IMG/VR virus record: IMGVR_UViG_3300046782_000589
DNA length: 64,000 nucleotides
Reading direction: 5' to 3' (one strand)
From: a virus
The translations under genes and the position numbers were made by a program. The notes under the pieces were generated by a model, which was given only the letters and a program-made list of their open reading frames with translations, had not been told where the DNA came from and ran no database searches. Shown piece after piece: positions 2,872 to 36,110 of the stretch. The stretch's first letter is position 1. Every line of letters starts with the position of its first letter.

Positions 2872-4655
2872 TGGCCTATTACGACACCACTTGGTACTGC
2901 AATTTCGGCAACGGCACGACGACTGGCTATTATGCGGTGACTGTTCGTCCGCAGAATGCGGCGGTTGCTGCCGGGCAGTTGTGCCGACAATTCACTGCGC
3001 CGGCAGTCAACAGTGAGCGCGTGTTCGTCTGCATTATCGCGGGCACTACGGCAAACGTCACTGATGCGACGTGGGTGCTGACGCGCGGCGCCAAGACAGT
3101 CGACGGCACGGCGACGTGGATGGAAGTTAGCGGCATTGCTGCTGTCAATGGTGACAAGACCAACACCGTCAACTGGACGCAGGCGAAAGCGATCGGTACG
3201 CCTACGCTCGGTACGATCATTCAACGTAGCAATGGTGCGAGCTATTGGATTTGCACTACGGCGGGTGCTTTGGGTGCGAGTGAACCCGCATGGGCGAACG
3301 ATACGGCCGGTACTACGCAGGCTGATAGCACGACAACATGGACGTGTCTTGGCGTGGTTGGTAACTTCACTGGCGGGCAGGCGCCACACGCGCGGTTGCA
3401 GAATGTCTGCACAACTAACTGGTTTGCGGCAGGTAACAGCTGCTACGTCGGCGATAATCATGCCGAGTCGCAGACGACGGCTATCACTATCGCCCCTGCT
3501 GGATCGATTTCGACCATTGACAAGATAATCTGCCACAACCACTCGGGCAGCTATCCTCCGGGGGCTTCCGATCTGAGAACGACCGCGACGATTTCAACCA
3601 CGGCGGCAGCTAGCATCACGATTAACGCCGGCGGCGCTATGGGGTATTATTTCTACGGATTGCAATTTTTACTCGGAGTTGGCACATCCGGTTTTACGCA
3701 ATTTCTCTCAACGAGCAATCTGGCGTTTTTGTTTTATGATGCGTGTCTTTTTAAGTTGGCTTCAACTGGCTCGTCGAACACCATAAATATCAATGCGTTT
3801 GCGGCTGCGGGATTTCAAATATGGAACAACTGTACGGTATATTTTGGTCATGCGCTAAACTATATCAGTATTGGTGACGTATTCTGGACATGGCAAAATA
3901 CCGGACCCATTCTGGCGAGCGGATCGGTGGTTCCTACCAATGGTTTATTGAACCCTCCAAGCAACGGCTGTATCAGCAATGTGACGCTTGAAGCTCTGGA
4001 TCTCAGCCAGATCACGACCAGTCTTACTACCGCGTCGACCGAAACCAAAATTCTTTTGGTTAAGGACTGCAAGCTGAACGCTGGGATGACGGTAGCGGTG
4101 CCAAACGCTCCCGGTCAAACCGTCCAGTTTGTGCGTTCCGATTCAGCCGCGACCGCCTACAAGTCCACCCGCTACGCCTACGAGGGCGCCGAGACGACCG
4201 AGACATCCATCGTGCGTACTGGGGGTTCGGTCGATCCAACCGGACAGGCGCAGTCGCGCAAGATCGTCACTACGGCAAATTCGCAGTGGCTGCGGCCGTT
4301 CAAGGCCGAACCGTATGCGATCTGGAATTCGACTGTTGGGTCGAGTGTTACCGTGACGGTATGCGGGGTGACTGGTGCTGGTGGATTGCCGAACAACGAT
4401 GACGTCTGGCTGGAGTGCGAGTACCTCGGATCGTCGGCAAGTCCGCTGGGCACGATCGTCACCACGACCAAGTCGAATGTGTTGGCGGCGAATGCAGCGG
4501 TGGCATCGGATAGTTCGTCGTGGGGCGGTGGTGTTACGGCTTTCAAGCTTGCCACCACGATCACGCCCCAGCTGCCCGGCTACATCCACGCGCGTGTCCG
4601 TGCCGCCAAGGCGTCCGCGACCTATTACATCGATCCAAAGGTCACACTGACATGA
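2871..4655 (+). CDS. Putative tail fibre/receptor-binding protein
   Basis: 594 aa Thr/Gly/Ala-rich ORF, translationally coupled within the tail gene cluster; lower-GC central segment. Confidence 0.65.
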
Positions 4656-5374
4656 CCCAGAACGTCCCCGCTCCTATTATGGCGCAGCCGGTCGTGGTGA
4701 TCGGCGGCCATACCGGACCCTCGGGTGGTCCGACCGGACCCTCCGGCCCGTTCGGACCGACCGGTCCTCTCGGCCTGACTGGCCCGCCTGGTCCGACCGG
4801 GCTCGGGCCGACCGGGCACACCGGCGCTACCGGGCTTGGAGCCTTCACCGGTCCGACCGGGATGACCGGACCGCCGGGGATCGGCTCGCCGTCGACGGTG
4901 GCAGGCCCCACCGGCGATACTGGTCCGACTGGCGTAACCGGTCCTGTCGGGACCGATGTATCACGGACCCGTTCGGCAATTTCAATAGGGCCGTTCGGTC
5001 CCTACGGGACTTCGGCAACGGCAGTCGGTCTTGGCTTTACTTATACGCCCCAGTCTACCGGCTATATTTTTGTCACGATCGCCGGTCTGTCGCGCAACTC
5101 GACTGGCGGTGGTGGGGCCGGTACGACGGTTTCCGGTCGCTATGGCACTGGCACACCCCCGGTTGCAGGTGCAACAGCCGGACTGGGCACGCTGTTTGGC
5201 GCTTCCCAGCGCACTTATGGCGTGGACAGTGCGGACTACACCGGGTTCACGGTAACGGCCATCATCAGTGGCCTGTCCATTGGAACGCCGTGCTGGTTCG
5301 ATCTTGCTGTTTTGTCGACGGCAGGTTCGACTGCCTATGTGCAAGATCTGCAGTACACCATGGTCGAGTTCTGA
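4652..5374 (+). CDS. Collagen-like tail protein with globular C-terminal domain
   Basis: ATGA overlap at 4652; [19 protein letters not shown] followed by G-P-T repeats. Confidence 0.8.
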
Positions 5375-5375
5375 C

Positions 5376-6704
5376 ATGGCCGGGATCCCCGCAGCTCCGG
5401 TAATGACCCGCCCGGTCGTGGTGGTGTCGGGTCCGGTTGGGCCGCCCGGCGGTGTTGGTCCCGCTGGTCCAACCGGTCCGGCCGGCGGTCCGACCGGTGC
5501 TGCAGGTTTTACTGGTGCTCAGGGAGCACTGGGCAATGTCGGTCCGATCGGTCCAACAGGATCACCGGGAGCAGCTGCCGCAACGGGTGCGACCGGTCCC
5601 GCGGGCGTGGCAGGGCCAACGGGGGCGACAGGTGTCCCCGGGCAGGCGGCTGCCGTGGGTGCGACCGGATCGACAGGAGCAACTGGACCACAGGGGCCAG
5701 TCGGGTTCGGAGGAGCAAACGGGCCGCAGGGCGTGATCGGGCCGACCGGACCGGCAGGCGCTGCCGGCACCGCGGGGATAGCGGGCGCGGCAGGCACTCC
5801 TGGTGTAACCGGCGCCACCGGACCAGTTGGTGTGACGGGAGCTGGCGCACCCGGACCGATGGGACCGGTAGGGCCGTCGGGGCCGCAGGGGGCCGCCGGC
5901 GCGACCGGACCGACCGGTCTGGGGTTTACCGGTGTGACCGGCCCGGCCGGTTTCGCGTCGACGACCGGCGCGACCGGGCCGACTGGTCCGGGAGTCGGCG
6001 CCACCGGGCCGACCGGAGCCGAGGGCTATAACGGCATTGACGGGCCGACTGGTCGTACCGGACCGACCGGTCCGATAGGCATTACCGGCCTGCAGGGCAA
6101 CAACGGCGCGACCGGACCGACCGGGATGACGGGACCGTTCGGCGTCGGTCCGACCGGCCTCGGGGCGACCGGGCCAACCGGCAACATCGGACCGACCGGC
6201 AATACCGGGACAACCGGGCCAACGGGACTGTTTGGTCCGGCCGGCGTGACCGGGCCCGGCGGTTCGACCGGACCGACCGGAGCGCCGCCTTCAACCAAGG
6301 ATGCGTTCCGCGCCAAGATGGCGACCAACCAGACCGGTATTCCGAATAGCATCAACACCAAGGTGAGCTTCACCACCGAGGTGTTTGACATCAACAACAA
6401 GTACGACTCGACCAATTCGCGCTGGACCCCGGTGGCCGGCACGGTGGTGATCGGTGCCGGCCTGCTGTTCCTGTCCGGCATCCGCAACAACACGTTTCCG
6501 CAGGTGATGATTTTCAAGAACGGCGGCTGTATCGCCCAGTCCGGCGCGCAGACCTCGACCGACACGTCGATCGCGCCGATCACGATCGTGGATTATGCCA
6601 ACGGCACCGACTACTACGAGTGCTACGCCAATGCGTCGTCGGCTGGCACGTCGACGATCGGTGCGGTCAATTTCGTCACGACATTCTACGGAGCGGCGCT
6701 GTGA
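5376..6704 (+). CDS. Collagen-like protein with C-terminal C1q-like domain
   Basis: About 300 aa of G-X-Y (GPT/GAT) repeats, then [14 protein letters not shown]...[15 protein letters not shown], a C1q/TNF-like pattern. Confidence 0.75.
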
Positions 6705-7604: not shown

Positions 7605-9890
7605 ATGACGGCGTACAAAATCGACAAGTTCGGCGGCATGCTCCCGGCCTGGGACACGCGCCTGCTCCCCGAGGGGCAGGCGGATTACTCCATCAACTCT
7701 TATCTGTTCTCCGGCGCGCTGATCGGCTGGCGCCAGCCCAAGCTGCTGTACATTCTGCGTAACAGCGCCGCCAAGTACGTCTATCGTCTCCCCAACCGCG
7801 ACACCAACAACACGGCGATAACGGCGATCGACTCGTTCTGGATGGAATTCCCCGATCCGGACACGACCGTGATGCACTCGCCTGTCGTGCAGGACGAGTG
7901 GCAACGCTACTACTGGGCCAGCGCCTCCGACGTTCCGAAGTACAATACGTATGACCGCATCACGAGCGGGCAGCACGAGTGGATTCTCGGCGTGCCGGCA
8001 TCGGGCTGCACGCCGGGTGTGACGGTCGAGGGTGGTGGTGACACCATGCAGGTCGGCAATGCAACGCAACGTCCGGAGGACGCTGGTGCTGTCGACTATC
8101 GACCGGGCAACAGCATCTTCCTGACGCCAATCGTGCCATCCGGGTCGATGTTGACCGAGTCGGTCAGTTTCGTGCCGGCATCGGATGATCCGGCGATCAA
8201 CTACAAGGCGGTCGTCTATACCGATCTCAATGGCGCACCGTACCAGTTGATCGGAACTGGCGACCAGGCCACCGGTATTTCTGCCGGCAATCCGGCGACC
8301 AGCTCTTTTACCAACGGTGTCTCGGTTATCGCCAACAAGACCTATTGGATCGGCATCGCGCACGACAATCCGTTCACCATGAATGTTGCTGACACGCGCG
8401 TCAGCAATGGCGCCACCACGAGCAACACCTACTCCAACGGTCCGCCCACCCCTATTGCCGCTACCGGCCACATGCCGGTCTGGCAGATGTACGGCAACCT
8501 GCTTGGTGCCTCGGTGTTCGAGGCGCGCGGTTATGTCTACACCTGGGTCACGGAGTACGGCGAGGAGGGTCCGCCGTCGGAGCCCGTGGTGGTGAACGGT
8601 TGGTCGAACGCGGTCTGGACCATCAACTGCTTCCAGCCGATGCCGGAGAACATGGGTGTGGACTACATCGACCCGGCCGATGGGCTGCTCAAGCAGGCCA
8701 AGCGTAACATCACCACGACCCGCATCTACCGCACGATCTCCAACCAGGCCGGGCAGGGGACGTATTTCTTCGTGACCGAGATGCCGGTCACCCAGGCGGT
8801 CTTCCAGGACACGATCGCCGACGACGTGGTGGCGCTTAATTCCCAGCTCGTGTCGCTGTTCTGGTTCGCGCCGCCGGAGGACCTGCAGGCGATCATCCCG
8901 TTTCCGAACGGCATCGCGGTTGGCTTCCGCAAGAACGAGATCTGGTTCAGTGAGGCCTACCGGCCGCACGCTTGGCCGCCGGGCTACGTTATCACGACCG
9001 AGTTTCCGATCGTCGGCATCGGCGTGTGCGGGCAGGCGATCGTGGCCTGCACGCAGGGCAATCCCTACGTGGCGAACGGCGTCAATCCATCGAGCATGGC
9101 GTTGACCAAGATCAACCTGCCGGAGCCGTGCCTGCACCGCGGCTCGATCGTCACGACCGACACGACAGTGCTCTATGTCTCGCAGAACGGCCTGATCCAG
9201 ATCAGCCAGTCGGGCGCCGGCGACAACATGACGGAAGGGTGGATTTCGCGTGAGAGATGGCAGGCGTTGACACCGCACGCGCGCGTGCGGGCAATCAAGC
9301 ACACGTCGGCTTATTTTGCCTTTGGCGGCGATCCGATCCGCGACGGCTTCACGGTCGAGCTGTCGAGCGAAGACAAGACATCGTTCACCATCTGGCCGCA
9401 GGCGGGTGGACATCGGCTGGGGTTCAACAAGCTGACCAGTCCCAACGAGTTCGACATTGACAACGTCGAGGTCGATCCGTGGACCGGCACCGGTCTGCTG
9501 GTGCAGGCAGGGGGTGTCTGGTACTACGACTTCGCCGACCAGTCGCCGACCATCGTACCATATCGCTGGCGGTCGAAGACCTACCAGCAGCTGGCACGCA
9601 AGAACTTCGAAGCCATGCGGGTCTGGTTCACGGTGCCGGACACGACACCGCCGCAGACAACGCGGGACACTTCGTACCCGCAACTGAGCCTGGGTGCCAA
9701 CCAGTACGGGATCATCCGTGTCTATGTGGACGGTGAGGTGTGGACCACGCGCGAGTTGCGAACGAGCGGCGAGCTCTTGCGGATCTTCTCCGGCATCAAG
9801 GGCGAGCAGTGGCAGTTCGAGATCGAAGGCAGGGTCAATGTCAGCAACCTGCAGGTCGCCACCAGCGTGAAGGAGCTTGGAACGGTATGA
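7605..9890 (+). CDS. Putative tail tubular/nozzle protein
   Basis: 761 aa; N-terminal KIDKFGGMLP..LLPEGQA and YVYTWVTEYGEEGPPSEP motifs that I associate with podovirus tail nozzle-like proteins; precedes the ejection genes. Confidence 0.65.
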   Translation: MTAYKIDKFGGMLPAWDTRLLPEGQADYSINSYLFSGALIGWRQPKLLYILRNSAAKYVYRLPNRDTNNTAITAIDSFWMEFPDPDTTVMHSPVVQDEWQRYYWASASDVPKYNTYDRITSGQHEWILGVPASGCTPGVTVEGGGDTMQVGNATQRPEDAGAVDYRPGNSIFLTPIVPSGSMLTESVSFVPASDDPAINYKAVVYTDLNGAPYQLIGTGDQATGISAGNPATSSFTNGVSVIANKTYWIGIAHDNPFTMNVADTRVSNGATTSNTYSNGPPTPIAATGHMPVWQMYGNLLGASVFEARGYVYTWVTEYGEEGPPSEPVVVNGWSNAVWTINCFQPMPENMGVDYIDPADGLLKQAKRNITTTRIYRTISNQAGQGTYFFVTEMPVTQAVFQDTIADDVVALNSQLVSLFWFAPPEDLQAIIPFPNGIAVGFRKNEIWFSEAYRPHAWPPGYVITTEFPIVGIGVCGQAIVACTQGNPYVANGVNPSSMALTKINLPEPCLHRGSIVTTDTTVLYVSQNGLIQISQSGAGDNMTEGWISRERWQALTPHARVRAIKHTSAYFAFGGDPIRDGFTVELSSEDKTSFTIWPQAGGHRLGFNKLTSPNEFDIDNVEVDPWTGTGLLVQAGGVWYYDFADQSPTIVPYRWRSKTYQQLARKNFEAMRVWFTVPDTTPPQTTRDTSYPQLSLGANQYGIIRVYVDGEVWTTRELRTSGELLRIFSGIKGEQWQFEIEGRVNVSNLQVATSVKELGTV

Positions 9891-12841: not shown

Positions 12842-15244
12842 ATGGCAGGAGCATCATCAAGCCAAAGCTCAGGCTCCAGCCAGAGCTATTCCGACACCTA
12901 TATCCCGGAATACTCGCAGACCCCGATCCTGACCGAGATCGCCCAGCACGCGCGATCGATGTCGGACCAAGTTTACAACTGGGGCATGGACCAGTTCAAC
13001 CGGTCCCAGGGCGACATCGATGGCGTGATGCGGGATGCGTTGTCCTACGCCTCCCCCCAGCGCATTGCCGTCGACATGGGCCAGGCCGAGAGCGGCGTGC
13101 AGCAGGCCGGCGAGCGCGGCCGTCTCTCCGCAGAGCGCGACCTGCAGTCCTACGGCATCGACCCGTCGAGCGGGCGCTATGCCGCGCTCGACAGCGCCAA
13201 CCGGGTGATGACCGCGGCGGCGGCAGCGGGTGCCGGCAACCAGCAGCGCATGGCCGACCAGGCCGCCGGCAACGCGATGCGCCAGCAGGCGATCTCGGCT
13301 GGACTGCAGAACAACCAGTTCGGCCTCGGGGTCGGCAATTCGGCGAACGCCTTCCTGAACACGGCCTCGCAGCTGAAATACCCGCCGCTTGGACGCTTTT
13401 CGGAGTCCACCAGCCAGCAGCAGAGCACGAGCGGCAGCGTGACGTCCGATCCGCCGCAGAGTGGTGGCAGCGGTGGCCAGCCGAAGCAGGGCGGCGGAGG
13501 CGGTGGCGGTGGACAGCCGAAGCAACCGGCAGCACCCAAGCCGGAGAAGCCAAAGCCGCCGGATGACCCAGGGCCCCCCAAGGGAAAACCGCAAGGACCT
13601 CAGGGCCAGCCGAAAGAGACGCCGAAGCCGGGAGAGACGCCGCCGGAGGAATCTCCTTTTACGATAGGGCCTGACGGGAAACCTTACGGTGGCGAGCCAG
13701 CGCCCGAAGGCGAGCCCTATGACAACTACAGGCCGCCGGATGAACCTTTGCTGCCCGCCGACCAGGATCCGCTCCTGCCGCCACCGGATGAACCTTTGCT
13801 GCCCGCCGACCAGGATCCGCTCCTGCCGCCTGCGGGCGAGGCGCTGGTTGATAACTCCGGCTACGATCCGTACCAGAATTCGCCTGCCAGCATGACGGCC
13901 CAGGCCATCGATCCGAACACGGGACAGCCACTAGGCTGGGGGAACGACCAGCCCGCGGCCGATCCGGCCGGCAGCCTGTACGGGATGGATCAGAGTGGCT
14001 GGACCGGTGATACGGGTGTCACCCCGGCTGGCTATGATCAACCGGTCACCGATCAGTCCCAGATGTGGTCGGACACCGGCCAGGGGACGCTGGCGCCTCC
14101 TGCACCGGGTTCTACCGATCAAAACGCTGGTTCTAACGACCCCAATACTGGTTATGGCGACCCGTTTGCGGATTTGACACCACCGGACGAATCCGGGTTC
14201 CAGCCTCCGGATTATAGCGATCCCAATGCAGTTGGTAATGCAGATGTCTCCGGTGGCGATTATTCCGGAAATTATGCCGGTGGCGATTATTCCGGAAATT
14301 ATGCCGGTGGCGATTATTCTGGAGGTGGTGGCGATTATTCAGCCAGCGGCGGCGACTACTCCGGTGGAGATTACTCCGGTGGAGATTACTCCGGTGGAGA
14401 TTACTCCGGGGGTGATTACTCCGGTGGCGACTACTCCGGTGGCGACTACTCCGGAGGTGATTACTCTAACGACAATACAAGCGGCGATTATTCAGGCGGT
14501 GACTACTCCGGCGGTGGTGACTACTCCGGCGGTGGTGACTACTCCGGCGGCGATAGTGGTGGTGACTATTCCAGCGGTAATTACGCCCGTGGCGGCACGG
14601 TCAGGCGTCCACTGAGGAGACCGAACATGCCTCGGCGCATGCCCCCTCCAGGACTGCGTCCTCCGATGCGTACCGGTTACCGGCCACGACCCATGCAGCG
14701 TCCGCCCGGGTTCGCCCGCGGCGGCCCGATGCCGGGACCAGGCGGCATCACCATGGACCCGCCGCCACCCAAGCAGAGACAGCCAAAGCCGCCGCAGGCA
14801 CCGCGTCCACCGCGCGGCGCACCAATGGCGGCACCAGGCGGCCCGCGCCCCGTCCCGATGGGCCAGGGTCCGCGCATGCCCGGCAACTTCATCTCGGCCA
14901 ACGGCATGCCGCCGCCCACGACCGGCGGGATGATGCCGCCACAACGCATGGCCCAGGGGGGACAGGCCGGCCGCATCGCGGAGCCGACCACGGGTGGGTT
15001 CGTGTCACGATCCTTGAGCCCGTCCGGCGGCTCGACCACCGACGACGTCAACGCGCGGCTCAACGCGGGAGAATTCGTGATCCCGAAGGACATCGCGGCG
15101 TGGAAGGGCAAGGAGTTCTTCTACAAGCTGATCGCCCAGGCCCGTAAGCAGCGATCGGGCGATAGCCAGAATTCCCAGAATTCCCAGAAGCCCCAGAAGC
15201 CCCAGGGAATGCCAACAGGCTACGGGCCGCGAGGGATGCGATGA
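12842..15244 (+). CDS. Putative internal virion (ejection) protein, low complexity
   Basis: 800 aa, Pro/Gly/Asp-rich; C-terminal GGSTTDDVNARLNAGEFVIP motif common in phage virion proteins. Confidence 0.65.
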   Translation: MAGASSSQSSGSSQSYSDTYIPEYSQTPILTEIAQHARSMSDQVYNWGMDQFNRSQGDIDGVMRDALSYASPQRIAVDMGQAESGVQQAGERGRLSAERDLQSYGIDPSSGRYAALDSANRVMTAAAAAGAGNQQRMADQAAGNAMRQQAISAGLQNNQFGLGVGNSANAFLNTASQLKYPPLGRFSESTSQQQSTSGSVTSDPPQSGGSGGQPKQGGGGGGGGQPKQPAAPKPEKPKPPDDPGPPKGKPQGPQGQPKETPKPGETPPEESPFTIGPDGKPYGGEPAPEGEPYDNYRPPDEPLLPADQDPLLPPPDEPLLPADQDPLLPPAGEALVDNSGYDPYQNSPASMTAQAIDPNTGQPLGWGNDQPAADPAGSLYGMDQSGWTGDTGVTPAGYDQPVTDQSQMWSDTGQGTLAPPAPGSTDQNAGSNDPNTGYGDPFADLTPPDESGFQPPDYSDPNAVGNADVSGGDYSGNYAGGDYSGNYAGGDYSGGGGDYSASGGDYSGGDYSGGDYSGGDYSGGDYSGGDYSGGDYSGGDYSNDNTSGDYSGGDYSGGGDYSGGGDYSGGDSGGDYSSGNYARGGTVRRPLRRPNMPRRMPPPGLRPPMRTGYRPRPMQRPPGFARGGPMPGPGGITMDPPPPKQRQPKPPQAPRPPRGAPMAAPGGPRPVPMGQGPRMPGNFISANGMPPPTTGGMMPPQRMAQGGQAGRIAEPTTGGFVSRSLSPSGGSTTDDVNARLNAGEFVIPKDIAAWKGKEFFYKLIAQARKQRSGDSQNSQNSQKPQKPQGMPTGYGPRGMR
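14271..14580 (+). repeat. Intragenic 15/18-bp tandem repeat encoding (GGDYS)n
   Basis: About 18 imperfect copies of ggtggNgaYtactcc. Confidence 0.9.
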
Positions 15245-32042: not shown

Positions 32043-32480
32043 TTACACCTGCGCTGCCACCGGGTCAAGCGGCTTGCTGTCGGAAGGCAGGATGATATTG
32101 CCCGACTCGCGCACCTCGATGTCGCACGCCATCGCCACGGCGCGCTCCGCGGTGGCGCCGGGAGAGCGCTCCCAGCCGGGCAGCAGCAGCACGATCTGGG
32201 CGTTGTCGATGATCCAGAGGATCTCGTCCTTCAGCGCTTCCCTGCGCGCCCACTTGCGGCTCTCCTTGTCCAGGCCAAGCAAGGTTTCAAGGTCACCGTA
32301 CATGTCGCGAAGGTGTTCGGCCGGGCTGAACACCTCGGCCCCCTCGGCACGCAACTTTTTGGCCACGTAGTCGAACAGCGGCATATTCCAATTGCCGCCG
32401 GCTGACTCCATCGGCCCGGCGATGTAGATGCGAAGGGGTCCACCCGGCGCGTGTTCCATTTTCATACTCGTCATTTGCAT
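32043..32480 (-). CDS. DUF4406-like protein (nucleoside deoxyribosyltransferase-like fold)
   Basis: RIYIAGPM...FSPAE...LLPGWERSPGATAERAVA. Confidence 0.8.
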   Translation of the reverse strand: MQMTSMKMEHAPGGPLRIYIAGPMESAGGNWNMPLFDYVAKKLRAEGAEVFSPAEHLRDMYGDLETLLGLDKESRKWARREALKDEILWIIDNAQIVLLLPGWERSPGATAERAVAMACDIEVRESGNIILPSDSKPLDPVAAQV

Positions 32481-34393
32481 ACTCCATAATTTGCCCCGGA
32501 GCCTATCTCCACGGCCAGCGGCAGACCCGGCAGCCAGTCCGGCACCCGGGTCATTTCCTCAGAAATTATTGCCTTGGATTCTATCACATTGTCGTTCGGC
32601 ACCAAGAATACGAGCTCGTCGTGCGCCTGCAAGACAAACCTCAAGCCGCGATCGGCGAGCCGGACGGCAGCCTGCATCACCACGATGCGGGCGAGCGCCT
32701 GCGTGATGTTTTCGAGCAGCTTGGCGCCGTACAGACGCACATCGTTGCGCTCGTAGCGCAGGGTCATTTTGTTGGGGAGTCCTATTTGGCCACTCTTGAA
32801 GGTAACCGGATCCCATTTAGCGAATTGAGTGTCGTTGGTGCTGTTGATGACATCGGCCAGATAGCGGTCCAGCCGGCGCCAGGCCTGCGGGATGGCCGGG
32901 TACAGCTTCCGATAGACGCCGACCGTGTACTCGGCCACGCGCTCGTCGAAGATCCCCTCCAGCGATATGCCAGCCTGCCGTGCCTGCGTGGTCACCATCT
33001 GGAAGTAGCGGTCGTGGCCGCAGCCGTAGCCCAGCCCCAGGATGGCGGTCTTGCCGAGGAACCGCTCGTGCGGGTTGTCCTTCTTGGTGACACGACGGTC
33101 GAACACGCGCGAGGCGAACTGGGCATAGACGTCCTCGCCGTCGCGGAACGACTCGATCAGGTCGGCCTGTCCGCACACCACCGCCACGATGCGCGCCTCG
33201 ATCTGGGCGAGGTCGGCCGTGATCATGGTCTGTCCGGACGGCGCCAGCAGCGCCTCGCGCAGCTTCGACTTCGCCTTGTCGCGCGGCAGGTTCTGCATGT
33301 TCAAACCCCACTCGCCCGACAGCCGGCCGGTATGGGCGCCGCCGTAGCGCAGTGCGACCGGCAGCAGCGCGCCGTTCCCGCGCAGTTCTCGCGCAGTTCC
33401 CGCGCAGTTCTGCGCAGTTCCCGCGCAGTTCTGCGCTGTTCCCGCGCCGTTCCACGGCAGGCTGGCGATCTTGATGAACTTCTGCGCGCGCGTCTCCTCG
33501 ATCGTGCTCTTGTGCGACAGCCGCGCCATCGCCAGCGTCTGCACCTGGTAGTTGGTGTCGTCGTCCGGGGAGCGGTCGTATTCGAGCAGCTTGGACATGA
33601 ACGGATCGGACTTGGAGAACTGCGGGATCCACTTGCCCGTGGGTGAGGTCTTGTGCTCGATCTCGACCCCGAGCCGCTCCAGCGTCTGCTTGAACTGGGC
33701 GGTACTCATCAGCGCGGCGCGGTCGTAGCCGCACTCGCGCAGGATGCGCTCCTTGCGCTGCAGCACGTCGACCAGATTGTCCTGCAGCAGCGGCACGTCG
33801 GCGTGCAGGGTGGGCTGCACCGCGGCGCGCAGCACCAGGTCCATGACCCTGCGCTCCTCCTGCGGAAACTCCTTGGACAGCGTCAGGTAGATCTGCATGC
33901 ACAGCCGGGCGTCCTGCAGGGCGTAGGTCTGGAACTCGCCCCACAGCCCGGCGCGCTTGATGCCGGCGGCATCCAGCCCCTTAACCCTGGGCAGGATGTC
34001 ACCCTTGCTGTCGTGGCCGAACAGCTCCTTGGCCACGGCACCGAGGCTGTAGCGTTTGTAGCTGCGCAGCGCGCGCGCCATCCCGAGCGTGTCCTGCAGC
34101 CGGCCGGCGACCCAATTGTAGCGCCACGCCAGGATGGAGAGGTCAAACAGCGCGTTGTGCGAGCAGCACACCGTCTCCTCGGCCGGGTACTTCGACAGGA
34201 ATCGGGGGATGTCCTCTGGCATGACGATCCTGGGAGCGTCCCACTTGATGTCGTAGACCGCCAGGAGCAGCGTCTGGTAGCGCTTGTCGAGGATGTACTC
34301 GGGCGGGCTCATCCGTCGCAGCGAGTACTCGGAATCATAAAAGGTCTCGAAATCCACAAATAAAAATTGCTTAAAAGTACCTTGCCTTGCCAT
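32471..34393 (-). CDS. polA: DNA polymerase, family A
   Basis: Exo I VDFET; motif A TADLAQIEAR; motif B RFLGKTAILGLGYG; motif C AHDEL. Start reassigned to the ATG at 34393 because the upstream 55 codons are translated repeat array. Confidence 0.9.
   Translation of the reverse strand: MARQGTFKQFLFVDFETFYDSEYSLRRMSPPEYILDKRYQTLLLAVYDIKWDAPRIVMPEDIPRFLSKYPAEETVCCSHNALFDLSILAWRYNWVAGRLQDTLGMARALRSYKRYSLGAVAKELFGHDSKGDILPRVKGLDAAGIKRAGLWGEFQTYALQDARLCMQIYLTLSKEFPQEERRVMDLVLRAAVQPTLHADVPLLQDNLVDVLQRKERILRECGYDRAALMSTAQFKQTLERLGVEIEHKTSPTGKWIPQFSKSDPFMSKLLEYDRSPDDDTNYQVQTLAMARLSHKSTIEETRAQKFIKIASLPWNGAGTAQNCAGTAQNCAGTARELRGNGALLPVALRYGGAHTGRLSGEWGLNMQNLPRDKAKSKLREALLAPSGQTMITADLAQIEARIVAVVCGQADLIESFRDGEDVYAQFASRVFDRRVTKKDNPHERFLGKTAILGLGYGCGHDRYFQMVTTQARQAGISLEGIFDERVAEYTVGVYRKLYPAIPQAWRRLDRYLADVINSTNDTQFAKWDPVTFKSGQIGLPNKMTLRYERNDVRLYGAKLLENITQALARIVVMQAAVRLADRGLRFVLQAHDELVFLVPNDNVIESKAIISEEMTRVPDWLPGLPLAVEIGSGANYGVCK
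33371..33454. repeat. 10/11-bp alternating tandem repeat inside the polymerase gene
   Basis: gcgcagttct / gcgcagttccc units, about 7 copies; encodes AGTAQNC AGTAQNC AGTAREL. Confidence 0.85.
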
Positions 34394-34659
34394 GCCATGC
34401 CTCGCCTTGCCATGCCTCGCCTTGCCGTGCCTCGCCTTGCCTCGCCTAGCCGCGCCGTGCCTGACCGTGTCTCGCCACGCCCCGCAGCGCCCCGCAACGC
34501 CTTGCCCCGCCACACCCCGCCGCGCCTTGCCGCGCCCAGCCGCGCCCAGCCGCGCCAAACCTAGCCACGCCCGGCCTTACCGTACCGCGCCTTGCCGAAC
34601 CTCGCCTTGCCGCGCCCAGCCGCGCCGAGCCTTGCCTCGCCTCGCCTCGCCCGGCCGTA
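34380..34659 (-). ncRNA. GGY-NN pentamer array C (56 units), putative guide RNA
   Basis: Unbroken 5-nt phase; constant GGC/GGT (rarely GAC, TGC) plus a variable dinucleotide. The repeat is seen directly; RNA status is inferred. Confidence 0.75.
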
Positions 34660-34675
34660 AAATTTACAAATAAAC

Positions 34676-34860
34676 CCTTGCCTCGCCTAGCCGCGCCTGG
34701 CCGCGCCGGGACTCGCCAAGCCCCGCCTGGCCAAGCCGTGCCGCACCATGCCCAGCCGTGTCCAGCCGCGCCTTGCCTAGCTATGCCGTGCCGCGTCTTG
34801 CCCTGCCCCGCCTAGTCCAGCCCGGCCCCGCCAAGCCACGCCACGCCTTGCCGTGCCAAG
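34676..34860 (-). ncRNA. GGY-NN pentamer array B (37 units), putative guide RNA
   Basis: Same phased structure, bounded by AT-rich linkers. Confidence 0.75.
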
Positions 34861-34880
34861 TCTAAATTTACAAATTAAAC

Positions 34881-35085
34881 CCTTGCCTTGCCTTGTCTAG
34901 CCGCGCCGGGCCGAGCCTTGCCGGGACCTGCCCAGCCACGCCGTGCCTCGCCGCGCCCTGCCGAGCCTCGCCTCGCCCCGCCCAGCCACGCCGAACCCCG
35001 CCACGCCGAGCCCCGCCACGCCGAGCCCCGCCTTGCCTTGCCGCGCCGGGCCGAGCCGCGCCGTGCCCGGCCCTGCCGAGCCTCG
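34881..35085 (-). ncRNA. GGY-NN pentamer array A (41 units), putative guide RNA
   Basis: Begins 6 nt after the stop of the RAMP-like gene. Confidence 0.75.
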
Positions 35086-35091
35086 GCAAAC

Positions 35092-35709
35092 TTAGTCCCA
35101 ACGCTCGATGCGAAACTTTCCAAACACACCGCGGAACGTCCCAAGCCCGATCGCCCGACCGCCTTCTTCGACAAGGTTTAAGACATCCTGCTCCTTGATC
35201 TCCCTGTTAGGAAAAATATCCATTGTGAACTGGATCGACCAGTCGAGCGGCACCACCGGCCGCACCTTGGGATTGGGGATGCCCTTGTCGAGCCGCGCGA
35301 CCGAATAGTGGACATAGCAGCCAGACAGCTCGTCGCGATCGTGGTCGAACTTGCCGAACACGATCGGCTGGCCCTTGCGCATCAGCGGCACCCACGTCTC
35401 GCGAATGCTGACGAACGACAGCATCGCGTTGGCGAGGTCCTTGAACTTGCGCTTGTCACGCAAGCGTTTCGGTGCGGAATTTGTGTTGTGGGCCGACAAG
35501 AAGCTCATAATGTTGAGCGTCGGCAGACCAATAACTCTGGAATCGCCCGGAGCGAAGTACAATTTCTGCTGCGGTTCCAGCTTGGTCTGGTTGTCCCCCG
35601 GATATCTGTCGAACATGATCTCGGTCAGTCCGGTAAGAACCACGTTTCGCGTCACGATGTCCGTCGGCCGGTTGATCTTTACGGCCGCGTCTTTGGTTTT
35701 GTCGAGCAT
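35092..35709 (-). CDS. Stand-alone RAMP/Cas7-like protein (Vipr-like)
   Basis: 205 aa; N-terminal strand VVLTGLTEIMFDRY, LPTLNIMSFL helix and C-terminal Gly-rich loop GGRAIGLGTFRGVFGKF typical of RAMPs. Alternative starts at 35721 and 35733. Confidence 0.75.
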   Translation of the reverse strand: MLDKTKDAAVKINRPTDIVTRNVVLTGLTEIMFDRYPGDNQTKLEPQQKLYFAPGDSRVIGLPTLNIMSFLSAHNTNSAPKRLRDKRKFKDLANAMLSFVSIRETWVPLMRKGQPIVFGKFDHDRDELSGCYVHYSVARLDKGIPNPKVRPVVPLDWSIQFTMDIFPNREIKEQDVLNLVEEGGRAIGLGTFRGVFGKFRIERWD

Positions 35710-35747
35710 GATCAGATCCATCCTTGTTTTCACTTGCCATGAAGTTT

Positions 35748-35867
35748 CCTCGCCTTGCCTCGCCCAGCCACGCCACGCCATGACTTGCCTTGCCGCGCCG
35801 TGCCGGGCCGAGCCGCGCCAAGCCGCGCCAAGCCGGGACTAGCCCCGCCATGCCTTGCCGAGCCAAA
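35748..35867 (-). ncRNA. GGY-NN pentamer array D (24 units), upstream of the RAMP-like gene
   Basis: Same phased structure; begins 3 nt after the stop of the upstream gene. Confidence 0.75.
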
Positions 35868-35870
35868 AAC

Positions 35871-36110
35871 TCACCTTGGTACCCAGCGATTGAACCCCTC
35901 GCGCTTGAGCAAACCCTCTCGCGCCATCTGGCTCAGATGGTACCAGGACTGTTCCCATCCGCCGATCTCGTTTGCCTGCTGGTTGGTGATGAAGCCTTTA
36001 CGCCTGGCGACCTTGAGCACGCGCTCGCGCGCCTCGTCGACCGCCTTGCGCTTGCGCCCGTTGTTCTGCTTGGCCTTCTTCGTCTTCTTCGTCTTCTTCG
36101 TCTTTGCCAT
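35871..36110 (-). CDS. Small basic putative winged-helix DNA-binding protein
   Basis: AAAGGAG RBS; Lys-rich N-terminus; GFITNQQA..I...YHLSQMAREGLL pattern. Confidence 0.6.
   Translation of the reverse strand: MAKTKKTKKTKKAKQNNGRKRKAVDEARERVLKVARRKGFITNQQANEIGGWEQSWYHLSQMAREGLLKREGFNRWVPR

What the first reader, a model, noticed from the sequence alone, without database searches (positions are those of the whole stretch)
34380..35867. Phage RAMP-like gene embedded in four GGY-NN pentamer arrays: candidate RNA-guided system with a non-contiguous guide code
Seen: on the minus strand the order is array D (24 units), a 205-aa gene, then arrays A (41), B (37) and C (56). All 158 units keep an unbroken 5-nt phase: nearly invariant GGC/GGT followed by a freely varying dinucleotide. 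Satellite decay would not hold three positions fixed and randomise two. Established: the protein's C-terminal Gly-rich loop is the hallmark of RAMP (Cas5/6/7) RNA-binding proteins, which polymerise along guide RNAs with fixed periodicity. No cas1, cas3 or classical CRISPR array is visible in the window. Inference: each protomer binds one GGY and presents NN for pairing, so the arrays are guides. This matches my unverified recollection of preprint-described VIPR systems (GGY/NN RNAs, every third target base skipped, repression of competing phages). Even if the family is known, these guides and their targets are probably not.
Basis: partly seen in the sequence, partly recalled or inferred. Interest (0 to 1): 0.97.

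Follow-up and report, generated by a model that had tools for sequence, protein, structure and literature searches.

The report
Phage VIPR system with long arrays
A soil phage carries a genuine VIPR system, a CRISPR-related RNA-guided DNA-silencing system first described in 2026 preprints: one small Cas7-like protein gene flanked by four arrays of GGY-NN five-base repeats. It is a new example of a known kind, notable mainly for unusually long guide arrays, and I could not find its targets.

Summary
On the minus strand lie array D (24 units), a 205-aa gene, and arrays A (41), B (37) and C (56). Together these make 158 GGY-NN pentamers, with about 0.15-0.47 bits of entropy at positions 1-3 and about 1.9 bits at positions 4-5.

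The protein has a Cas7-type RAMP fold. Its only sequence match among solved structures is the SUSP1 Vipr protein. Its four best AlphaFold-DB cluster matches are four of the five founding Vipr representatives named in the discovery preprint.

In 97 of 99 related loci, a same-strand GGY-NN array lies within 700 nt of the gene. This is therefore a member of the published VIPR family (bioRxiv 10.64898/2026.04.26.720920). This scan has already reported VIPR loci in at least 35 other genomes.

Features the text I could read does not describe:
- arrays of 24-56 units, and up to 89 in relatives, against 9-16 published;
- short AT-rich linkers carrying a phage-wide promoter-associated motif, in place of a structured tail;
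- no conserved accessory gene;
- array C supplying the ribosome-binding site and start codon of the DNA polymerase gene.

Thirteen guide seeds (about 110 of 158 units) found no natural target. No RNA data exist. Expression, processing and targets therefore remain untested.

The parts
35745..35864 (-). vrRNA array D, upstream of vipr: 24 GGY-NN units, ending ...GGCGA GGCAA GGCGA GG+AAACTTC
   Evidence: The array lies on the same strand as the gene. 73 of 99 related loci have an upstream array.
35092..35709 (-). vipr gene: 205-aa Cas7-like RAMP (P0001). The start is ATG 35709, with AGGA 11 nt upstream. The Gly-rich loop is residues 188-199 (GLGTFRGVFGKF).
   Evidence: - Homologues begin at the same Met (A1).
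- The AF2 model has pLDDT 81 and pTM 0.77.
- Csm3/Cas7 matches reach Z up to 10.0 and Foldseek E 3e-4.
- The sequence matches SUSP1 Vipr, PDB 36pp, at E 1.9e-4.
- X1U2U4, A0A0F9A1L0, A0A1F4YLN4 and A0A661D0E2 are the top four AFDB cluster hits.
34878..35082 (-). vrRNA array A: 41 units, starting 10 nt after the vipr stop codon. It contains an internal (GG-TC-GT)x3 duplication (units 10-18).
34858..34877 (-). A/B linker (GG)GTTTAATTTGTAAATTTAGAC, 20 nt. It carries the phage-wide TGTAAATTTAsA motif, followed by a -35-like TTGGCA.
   Evidence: The motif occurs at 10 sites against 0.36 expected. The same motif-then-TTGACx arrangement occurs at other early-region junctions.
34673..34857 (-). vrRNA array B: 37 units
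34657..34672 (-). B/C linker (GG)GTTTATTTGTAAATTTTAC, 16 nt, a degenerate copy of the same motif. The phase shifts by 1 nt here.
34377..34656 (-). vrRNA array C: 56 units. Its last units double as the RBS (GAGG) and start codon (ATG 34393) of the DNA polymerase A gene.
   Evidence: The L105 polymerase N-terminus aligns from residue 63 of the window ORF, and ATG 34393 is the only plausible in-frame start.
32471..34395 (-). DNA polymerase A gene (context). It lies immediately downstream on the same strand, and its 5' end overlaps array C.
   Evidence: phrog_17 at E 1.3e-68.
35871..36110 (-). 79-aa basic, possibly winged-helix ORF upstream of array D. It is a phage-backbone gene, not a VIPR accessory gene.
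   Evidence: - Pfam gives only a weak AbiEi_4 match, E 0.008.
- No homologue lies beside vipr in any of the 99 loci.
- Its only homologue sits in a VIPR-less relative, upstream of the polymerase.

Best explanation
This is a VIPR (Viral Interference Programmable Repeat) cassette sitting in the early/replication region of a roughly 65-kb soil phage.

Shown here:
- The gene encodes a Vipr-family Cas7-like RAMP protein.
- It is flanked on its own strand by four arrays of GGY-NN pentamers.
- The gene-plus-array association holds across the whole protein family.
- The arrays keep their 5-nt phase, while the NN content turns over much faster than the protein.

Inferred from the published SUSP1 work, not tested here:
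- The arrays are transcribed and Vipr protomers polymerise along them, one per pentamer. Each protomer sequesters GGY and presents NN.
- The filament binds double-stranded DNA whose sequence reads xNN-xNN..., skipping every third base, and silences transcription of a competing mobile element.

Inferred from the anatomy here:
- Each array may be its own transcription unit. The linkers carry the phage's promoter-associated motif, and the downstream arrays lie on the same strand as the DNA polymerase gene, directly upstream of it.
- Arrays grow and diversify by whole-unit slippage, duplication and point change, without any adaptation genes.
For: Fold
- The AF2 model (pLDDT 81) matches almost only Cas7-family RAMPs. 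Examples: Csm3 9g9a_D at Z 10.0 and 6ae2_B at Z 9.2, then Cmr4, gRAMP and Cas7. The top 50 Foldseek PDB hits are all CRISPR effector-complex or RAMP entries.

Family link
- The only PDB sequence hit is 'SUSP1 Vipr protein', 36pp_D, at E 1.9e-4. It covers the thumb-to-G-loop segment, and a family profile gives the same hit.
- SUSP1's GGY-contact residues align as R138->R150 (invariant), W178->F192 and R179->R193.
- AFDB cluster hits 1-4 are X1U2U4, A0A0F9A1L0, A0A1F4YLN4 and A0A661D0E2, and hit 15 is A0A2D6XG06. These are the five founding Vipr representatives listed in the discovery paper.

Arrays
- 158 phased units, far beyond chance.
- 97 of 99 related loci have a same-strand array within 700 nt, against 3 with an opposite-strand one.
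- The family shares a 3' end of (GGCRA)2-4 + GG + a U-rich stretch.

Guide-like evolution
- No NN block of 6 or more units is shared with relatives whose Vipr is 86-87% identical.
- Close relatives differ by whole-unit indels that preserve phase.
- NN dinucleotides that could pair with GG are depleted, and the arrays fold less stably than random-NN controls (0 of 200 as weak).

Context
- The window is a phage: tail fibre, internal virion protein, DNA polymerase, helicase, primase.
- There is no CRISPR-like array.
Against: - No transcription or processing data exist. No RNA run is listed.
- No natural target was found. There are no self-targets, and local scans under the 1-nt-skip rule did no better than the 0-, 2- and 3-nt control rules.
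- Thirteen exact seeds, covering about 110 of 158 units, gave only chance-level, non-extending hits in IMG/VR, JGI metagenomes and GTDB genomes.
- One guide (guide 1) of a clade member in an isolate genome found nothing in its own genome or in 401 genomes of its family. The 1-nt-skip rule is therefore assumed, not shown, for this clade.
- Array lengths of 24-56 units exceed the published 9-16. There is no structured tail and no conserved vap gene.
- The G1-contacting Asp of SUSP1 (D177) is Thr here.
Confidence: 0.9

Rival explanations
1. The locus is a VIPR system, but much of each long array is slippage-expanded ballast. Only a canonical-length stretch of about 12-20 units next to each 3' end works as a guide, and the rest is evolving raw material or is non-functional.
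For: - Median array length in the family is 16 units (IQR 13-22), and only 13% of arrays reach 30 or more.
- The window's arrays hold internal higher-order repeats: (GG-TC-GT)x3, and TRF periods of 15, 25 and 50.
- Relatives differ by tandem unit duplications.
- The conserved (GGCRA)n-GG-U-rich end occurs only at array 3' ends.
Against: - GGY is kept along the whole length of all four arrays (143 of 158 perfect, and no decay gradient is obvious by eye in the listing).
- Long arrays recur across a whole subclade (23 arrays of 30 or more units in 16 loci), which suggests they are tolerated or selected.
Confidence: 0.3
2. Besides, or instead of, acting in trans on DNA, Vipr coating of array C acts in cis on the phage's own messenger RNA. 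It would cover the ribosome-binding site and start codon of the DNA polymerase gene, and so couple replication to Vipr level.
For: - ATG 34393 and the GAGG 6 nt upstream are built from array C units, and they are the only plausible start for the polymerase.
- The arrays and the polymerase gene lie on the same strand with no terminator between them.
Against: - The overlap is specific to this phage. In relatives the cassette sits next to many different genes, and in phages that lack this polymerase altogether.
- The overlap may simply reflect tight packing.
- No published VIPR acts on RNA.
Confidence: 0.12
3. The arrays are not guides at all. They would be a G-rich microsatellite (possibly forming G-quadruplexes) or the coding sequence of a repetitive protein that merely sits next to a RAMP-like gene.
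For: - Open reading frames run through the arrays in several frames.
- GG-N3 repeats could in principle form two-tier G-quadruplexes (general knowledge).
Against: - A 5-nt period with three fixed and two free positions is incompatible with codon-level selection.
- Microsatellite decay would not spare positions 1-3.
- The arrays accompany the gene on its own strand in 97 of 99 loci, across proteins 48-87% identical.
- The same architecture is experimentally shown to be guide RNA in SUSP1.
Confidence: 0.02

Closest known systems
VIPR systems: Vipr protein plus vrRNAs, best characterised as type II in Escherichia phage SUSP1 and the Pseudomonas fulva prophage (bioRxiv 10.64898/2026.04.26.720920, 10.64898/2026.04.26.720927, 10.64898/2026.10.15.759431)
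   Same: - A single small RAMP protein of about 200 aa with a G-loop.
- GGY-NN pentamer arrays upstream and downstream on the gene's own strand.
- A phage location, with no cas genes or CRISPR array.
- Conserved Arg, aromatic and Arg residues at the positions that contact G2 and Y3 in SUSP1.
- Hypervariable NN.
   Different: - Sequence similarity to SUSP1 Vipr is marginal: E 1.9e-4, over the C-terminal 50 residues only.
- Arrays have 24-56 units, against 9-16.
- There is no roughly 40-nt pseudoknotted tail. Instead there are (GGCRA)n-GG followed by a 16-20-nt AT-rich linker that carries a phage promoter-associated motif.
- There is no vap gene.
- D177 of SUSP1 is Thr here.
- The VIPR type (I-VII) could not be assigned, because the supplementary tables are not held.
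Staggered vrRNA arrays (fig. S18 of the discovery preprint), seen here in Mycobacterium phage Donkeykong
   Same: Several guides are packed head to tail without long spacers.
   Different: Staggered arrays shift register by 1 nt between guides. Donkeykong has five blocks of 9-12 units, each offset by 1 nt. The window's arrays keep one unbroken register for up to 56 units, so nothing in the sequence marks guide boundaries.
Class 1 CRISPR-Cas backbone subunits (Cas7 family: Csm3, Cmr4, Csf2, Cas7)
   Same: The same RRM-based RAMP fold, with a thumb and a Gly-rich loop (Z 7-10). These subunits also polymerise along a guide RNA with a fixed periodicity (established for them; inferred here).
   Different: - There is no CRISPR repeat-spacer array, and no Cas1, Cas2, Cas3, Cas5, Cas6, Cas10 or small subunit.
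- The periodicity is 5 nt with a non-contiguous 2-of-5 guide code, instead of 6 nt with 5 of 6 bases paired.

Membership tests
VIPR | Stand-alone RAMP protein with an RRM core, a thumb and a glycine-rich loop | tested here: met
   - The AF2 model has pLDDT 81, and the G-loop at residues 188-199 lies between helix 173-186 and strand 199-204.
- Csm3/Cas7 matches reach Z up to 10.0, and all top Foldseek PDB hits are CRISPR effector-complex or RAMP entries.
VIPR | Specific relatedness to described Vipr proteins | tested here: met
   - SUSP1 Vipr (36pp_D) is the only PDB sequence hit, at E 1.9e-4.
- AFDB cluster ranks 1-4 and 15 are the five founding Vipr accessions of the paper.
- Among the AFDB cluster hits these Vipr accessions score better than the best CRISPR RAMPs (E 1.5e-7 to 2.3e-5, against 3.4e-4 or weaker).
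VIPR | Tandem GGY/NN (YNNGG) pentamer arrays next to vipr on the same strand | tested here: met
   158 units lie in four arrays. 97 of 99 related loci have such an array within 700 nt on the gene's strand.
VIPR | Residues that read G1, G2 and Y3 in the SUSP1 structure | tested here: inconclusive
   By the phmmer alignment and the paper, R138->R150, W178->F192 and R179->R193 are conserved and invariant in the clade. D177->T191 and C173->I187 differ. H17 and K33 could not be aligned.
VIPR | vrRNA of 9-16 repeat units (typical of the characterised type II; not stated to be defining) | tested here: not met
   The window has 24, 41, 37 and 56 units. The family median is 16 and the maximum is 89. 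Whether the arrays are processed into shorter RNAs is unknown.
VIPR | Invariant 3' tail capping the repeat tract (a pseudoknot in the SUSP1 clade) | tested here: inconclusive
   A conserved 3' end exists family-wide: (GGCRA)2-4 + GG + a U-rich stretch. It is short, has no Rfam match, and the AT-rich palindrome cannot form a stable hairpin. In the window it coincides with a DNA-level phage motif.
VIPR | Accessory vap gene in the operon (typical; varies by type) | tested here: not met
   No neighbouring protein is conserved beside vipr in the 99 loci. The upstream 79-aa ORF has its only homologue in a VIPR-less phage.
VIPR | Viral or proviral location without cas genes or a CRISPR array | tested here: met
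   PHROG hits mark virion and replication genes. No interspaced repeats occur in the window. 80 related loci come from IMG/VR viral contigs.
VIPR | vrRNAs are expressed and co-purify with Vipr | not testable with these tools
   The DNA occurs in 24 soil and rhizosphere metagenome studies, but no RNA run is listed.
VIPR | Guides match natural DNA targets under the 1-nt-skip (xNN) rule | tested here: inconclusive
   - No target was found locally, and skip 1 did no better than skips 0, 2 and 3.
- Thirteen exact seeds in the large collections gave only chance-level, non-extending hits.
- The exact-match requirement and the unknown host make this a weak test.
CRISPR-Cas class 1 | CRISPR repeat-spacer array and cas operon (Cas5/6/7 with Cas3 or Cas10; Cas1-Cas2) | tested here: not met
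   There is no interspaced repeat array in 64 kb. The protein's neighbours are phage replication genes. Only the fold is shared.

The most novel reading that the evidence does not exclude
The long, register-unbroken arrays of this subclade (37-56 units here, up to 89 in relatives) may be a vrRNA architecture not yet described. They could be very long guides that give gapped footprints of 110-270 bp. Alternatively they could be unpunctuated multi-guide precursors, cut without tails, 1-nt staggers or ribozymes. Each array would be driven by the host phage's own promoter-associated motif. One array would also serve as the translation-initiation region of the DNA polymerase, so that Vipr loading could gate phage replication.
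Probability: 0.25. Interest if true: 0.65.

Novelty: new member of a known kind. Interest (0 to 1): 0.4.

Why it matters
VIPR is a very recent discovery: an RNA-guided DNA-binding system with a non-contiguous code, proposed as an ancestor of CRISPR RAMPs.

This locus adds a well-supported member from an uncultivated soil phage. It carries one of the larger guide repertoires seen here, 158 units.

The protein family around it numbers more than 2,000 metagenomic proteins. In that family:
- array length ranges continuously from about 10 to about 90 units;
- there is no conserved accessory gene;
- guide content turns over by whole-unit slippage.

These points bear on how guides are made and diversified without adaptation genes, and on what limits filament length. 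They do not change the picture of what VIPR is.

Burkholderia phage vB_E436, which has been isolated and fully sequenced, carries a clade member and offers a practical experimental route.

Tried and rejected
Target search
- Self-targets in the window, targets in the 99 related loci, and relatives' guides against this window: nothing above the 0-, 2- and 3-nt skip controls.
- The same scan against five whole Vipr-bearing phage genomes plus L103 and L105. The best diagonal matched 22 of 26 bases over 13 units, array A's internal repeat against G408. This was no better than the controls and was rejected as chance.
- Thirteen exact 9-11-unit seeds were scanned.
  - IMG/VR, seven seeds: 0, 3, 0, 4, 1, 1 and 0 hits.
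  - JGI metagenomes, two seeds: 0 and 0.
  - GTDB genomes, four seeds: 0, 0, 2 and 0.
  - Every hit was seed-only, with flanks matching at chance level and unrelated contexts.
- One guide from the Candidimonas prophage clade member, allowing up to 3 mismatches: 0 hits in its own genome and three others, and 0 in 401 genomes of its family.

Accessory gene
- The 79-aa ORF is a backbone gene, not a vap.

Other checks
- Rfam, including hammerhead ribozymes: nothing.
- No sigma-70 promoter consensus in the locus, and terminator-like hits only at the chance level.
- GTCCC as a guide-boundary mark: it recurs in arrays D, A and B but is absent from all 177 arrays of relatives, so it was rejected.
- Contigs from four other soil samples laid on the locus were too fragmented to read array variation. 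One joint, 34643->34916 with 30 nt of other GGY-NN units, appears in three runs but is weak.
- No RNA runs are listed, and no whole genome is held for the window.
- The paper's supplementary tables are not held, so the VIPR type could not be assigned.

Not done
- I did not turn the guides into degenerate peptides for profile searches, because that would have meant typing long strings into a tool call.


Full report
**Observation**

Reading the minus strand of 34200-36100 and parsing it in 5-nt steps reproduces the finding exactly.
- Array D lies at 35864..35745 (24 units).
- A 205-aa gene lies at 35709..35092.
- Array A lies at 35082..34878 (41 units), array B at 34857..34673 (37) and array C at 34656..34377 (56).
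- Of the 158 units, 143 are perfect GGY-NN. The rest deviate at one fixed position.
- Entropy is 0.15, 0.37 and 0.47 bits at positions 1-3, and 1.83 and 1.94 bits at positions 4-5.
- The longest perfect in-phase run is 32 units at the locus. It is 3 anywhere else in the window and 3-5 in Markov simulations.
- The register is unbroken within arrays and across the A/B linker (20 nt). It shifts by one base across the B/C linker (16 nt).
- NN is not wholly free. CT is absent, and C is rare at the first variable position.

**The protein**

Pfam gives nothing, and PHROGs gives only an unannotated family.

Against all PDB sequences the single hit is 'SUSP1 Vipr protein' (36pp_D, E 1.9e-4). It aligns residues 150-202 with 138-188 of that chain. 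A profile of 25 homologues returns the same single hit.

Using the contact residues listed in the cryo-EM preprint, the alignment maps as follows:
- SUSP1 R138 (thumb; salt bridge to G2) falls on R150;
- W178 (stacks on G2) falls on F192;
- R179 (cation-pi on Y3) falls on R193. All three are invariant in the clade;
- D177 (reads G1) falls on T191.

An AlphaFold2 model built on the alignment (pLDDT 81, pTM 0.77) has the beta-alpha-beta-beta-alpha-beta RRM order, with the Gly-rich loop GLGTFRGVFGKF between the last helix and the last strand.
- The top 50 Foldseek PDB hits are all CRISPR effector-complex or RAMP entries, mostly type III Csm/Cmr complexes.
- An exhaustive VIA-align search puts Csm3 first (Z 10.0 and 9.2), followed by Cmr4, gRAMP domains, Csf2 and Cas7.
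- Against AlphaFold-DB clusters, ranks 1-4 are X1U2U4, A0A0F9A1L0, A0A1F4YLN4 and A0A661D0E2, and rank 15 is A0A2D6XG06. These are exactly the five accessions the discovery paper names as its founding Vipr hits. The first four score better than any CRISPR RAMP.

**Do the arrays travel with the gene?**

More than 2,000 homologues exist in metagenomes. I fetched 99 related loci with proteins 48-87% identical: 80 viral contigs, 18 genome contigs and one ENA contig.
- With a slightly relaxed caller, 97 of 99 have a GGY-NN array within 700 nt on the gene's own strand. Of these, 43 have arrays on both sides, 30 upstream only and 24 downstream only. Only 3 have one on the opposite strand.
- Family-wide, arrays end in (GGCRA)2-4 + GG + a U-rich stretch, as the window's arrays do.
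- Array length has a median of 16 units (IQR 13-22). 13% of arrays reach 30 units and the maximum is 89, with the long arrays concentrated in the window's own subclade.

**What is known**

VIPR systems were described in 2026 preprints.
- A Vipr RAMP protein polymerises on vrRNAs made of 9-16 YNNGG repeats plus a 3' tail.
- Each GGY is sequestered, and the NN bases pair with double-stranded DNA while every third target base is skipped.
- Natural targets are competing satellites and prophages.
- Seven types exist, with varied array architectures and accessory vap genes.
- A later survey found 99 period-5 clusters of VIPR-like arrays.
- This scan itself has VIPR reports from at least 35 other genomes.

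**Anatomy specific to this locus**

1. *Array length.* The four arrays have 24-56 units, outside the 9-16 described. One published caller stops at 40 units.
2. *No boundary marks.* Nothing inside the arrays marks guide boundaries. There is no 1-nt stagger of the kind I saw in Mycobacterium phage Donkeykong. There is no ribozyme or any other Rfam family. The recurrent odd unit GTCCC is private to this phage.
3. *Linkers.*
   - The inter-array linkers carry the motif TGTAAATTTAsA, which occurs at 10 sites against 0.36 expected.
   - Elsewhere in the 32-46 kb early region the motif sits directly upstream of -35-like TTGACx hexamers, and the A/B linker has the same arrangement.
   - The motif also follows the homologue of the upstream 79-aa ORF in a related phage that has no VIPR.
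   - It is therefore a backbone DNA element, probably promoter-associated, rather than a structured RNA tail.
4. *No vap gene.*
   - No neighbouring protein is conserved across the 99 loci.
   - The 79-aa ORF belongs to the backbone. In L105 it is followed by two unrelated genes and the polymerase, with no vipr and no arrays.
   - Phages whose Vipr is 73-86% identical lack this phage's polymerase altogether, so the cassette moves between backbones.
5. *Overlap with the polymerase.* The polymerase homologue in L105 aligns from residue 63 of the window ORF. That leaves ATG 34393, preceded by GAGG at 6 nt, as the only plausible start, and both are formed by array C units.

**Evolution of the arrays**

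- The window shares no NN block of 6 or more units with any relative.
- Close relatives differ by indels of 1, 2, 3 or 6 whole units, including a tandem duplication of a 3-unit block. The window has its own (GG-TC-GT)x3.
- Dinucleotides able to pair with the constant GG (CC, CT, TC, TT) make up 11.7% of 3,200 family units, against 23.6% in the window's background.
- Each of the four arrays is predicted to fold less stably than all 200 same-frame arrays built with genome-like NN (z 2.3-4.8). Permuting the NN changes nothing, so the effect is compositional. This fits selection for loadable, unstructured guides, but a preference for a particular target strand would give the same bias.

**Targets**

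I applied the published rule (GGY replaced by one wildcard), using the 0-, 2- and 3-nt skip rules as controls.
- There are no self-targets. Nothing turned up in the related loci or in five whole Vipr-bearing phages, and relatives' guides do not hit this window.
- Thirteen exact seeds, covering about 110 of the 158 units, gave only chance-level, non-extending hits in IMG/VR, JGI metagenomes and GTDB genomes.
- One guide from a clade member in a Candidimonas isolate found nothing in its own genome or in 401 genomes of its family.
- The host is unknown and collection scans allow exact matches only, so this is weak negative evidence. It does mean the skip rule is assumed, not shown, for this clade.

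**Expression**

The phage DNA occurs in 24 soil and rhizosphere metagenome studies, but no RNA run is listed.

**Verdict**

- I class it as a new member of a known kind.
- The long unpunctuated arrays, the promoter-motif linkers, the missing vap gene and the overlap with the polymerase start are variant features worth an experiment.
- They do not amount to a new kind of system.
- Interest is moderate.

Noticed in passing
window 32036, 34861, 38486, 39505, 41683, 43236, 44893, 46177, 58241 (12-mers), plus a degenerate copy at about 34660: The AT-rich palindrome-like motif TGTAAATTTACA (up to 2 mismatches) occurs 10 times against 0.36 expected. It is mostly at gene junctions of the early region and often sits directly upstream of a -35-like TTGACx. 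It also occurs in the VIPR-less relative L105. It is probably a phage promoter UP-type element or operator.
   Followed up: partly
window 34377-34400: The DNA polymerase A start codon (ATG 34393) and its GAGG ribosome-binding site are formed by the last units of guide array C.
   Followed up: yes
window 33368-33453: An 11/21-nt tandem repeat lies inside the DNA polymerase gene and encodes NCAGTAQ-type peptide repeats. It looks like an insertion in the polymerase.
   Followed up: no
L104 (Mycobacterium phage Donkeykong NC_051648, record 36.9-37.2 kb): Five blocks of 9-12 GGY-NN units, each offset from the last by 1 nt (the staggered array architecture), lie under annotated hypothetical CDS 48 and 49. 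Those CDS calls are probably spurious.
   Followed up: partly
L103 (Burkholderia phage vB_E436 PQ789831, gene vBE436_00039): This isolated, fully sequenced phage encodes a Vipr 65% identical to the window's. A single 15-unit array lies directly upstream, with a relaxed third position (GGC/GGA). It is annotated only as a hypothetical protein.
   Followed up: partly
L019, L020, L022 (arrays at 3879-3948 and 7893-7962): A second, nearly identical copy of the 14-unit array lies 4 kb downstream of vipr with one NN change. It is a solo vrRNA copy.
   Followed up: no
all arrays of L001-L099 and the window: NN dinucleotides made of two pyrimidines (able to pair with the constant GG) are depleted: 11.7% against 23.6% in the background, and CT is only 1.3%. 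Natural arrays fold less stably than random-NN controls.
   Followed up: yes
window 4688-4785: ARAGORN calls a 98-nt tRNA-Pro(CGG) inside a collagen-like GPT/GAT repeat of a tail-fibre gene. This is probably a false positive.
   Followed up: no
window 4726-6280 and 14248-14586: Long coding tandem repeats lie in virion genes: collagen-like G-X-T triplets in tail-fibre genes and 15-nt GGDYS-type repeats in a structural protein.
   Followed up: no
L005 4-281 (opposite strand): A second cluster of three arrays (24, 21 and 8 units) lies in the opposite orientation about 3 kb upstream of vipr, at the contig edge.
   Followed up: no
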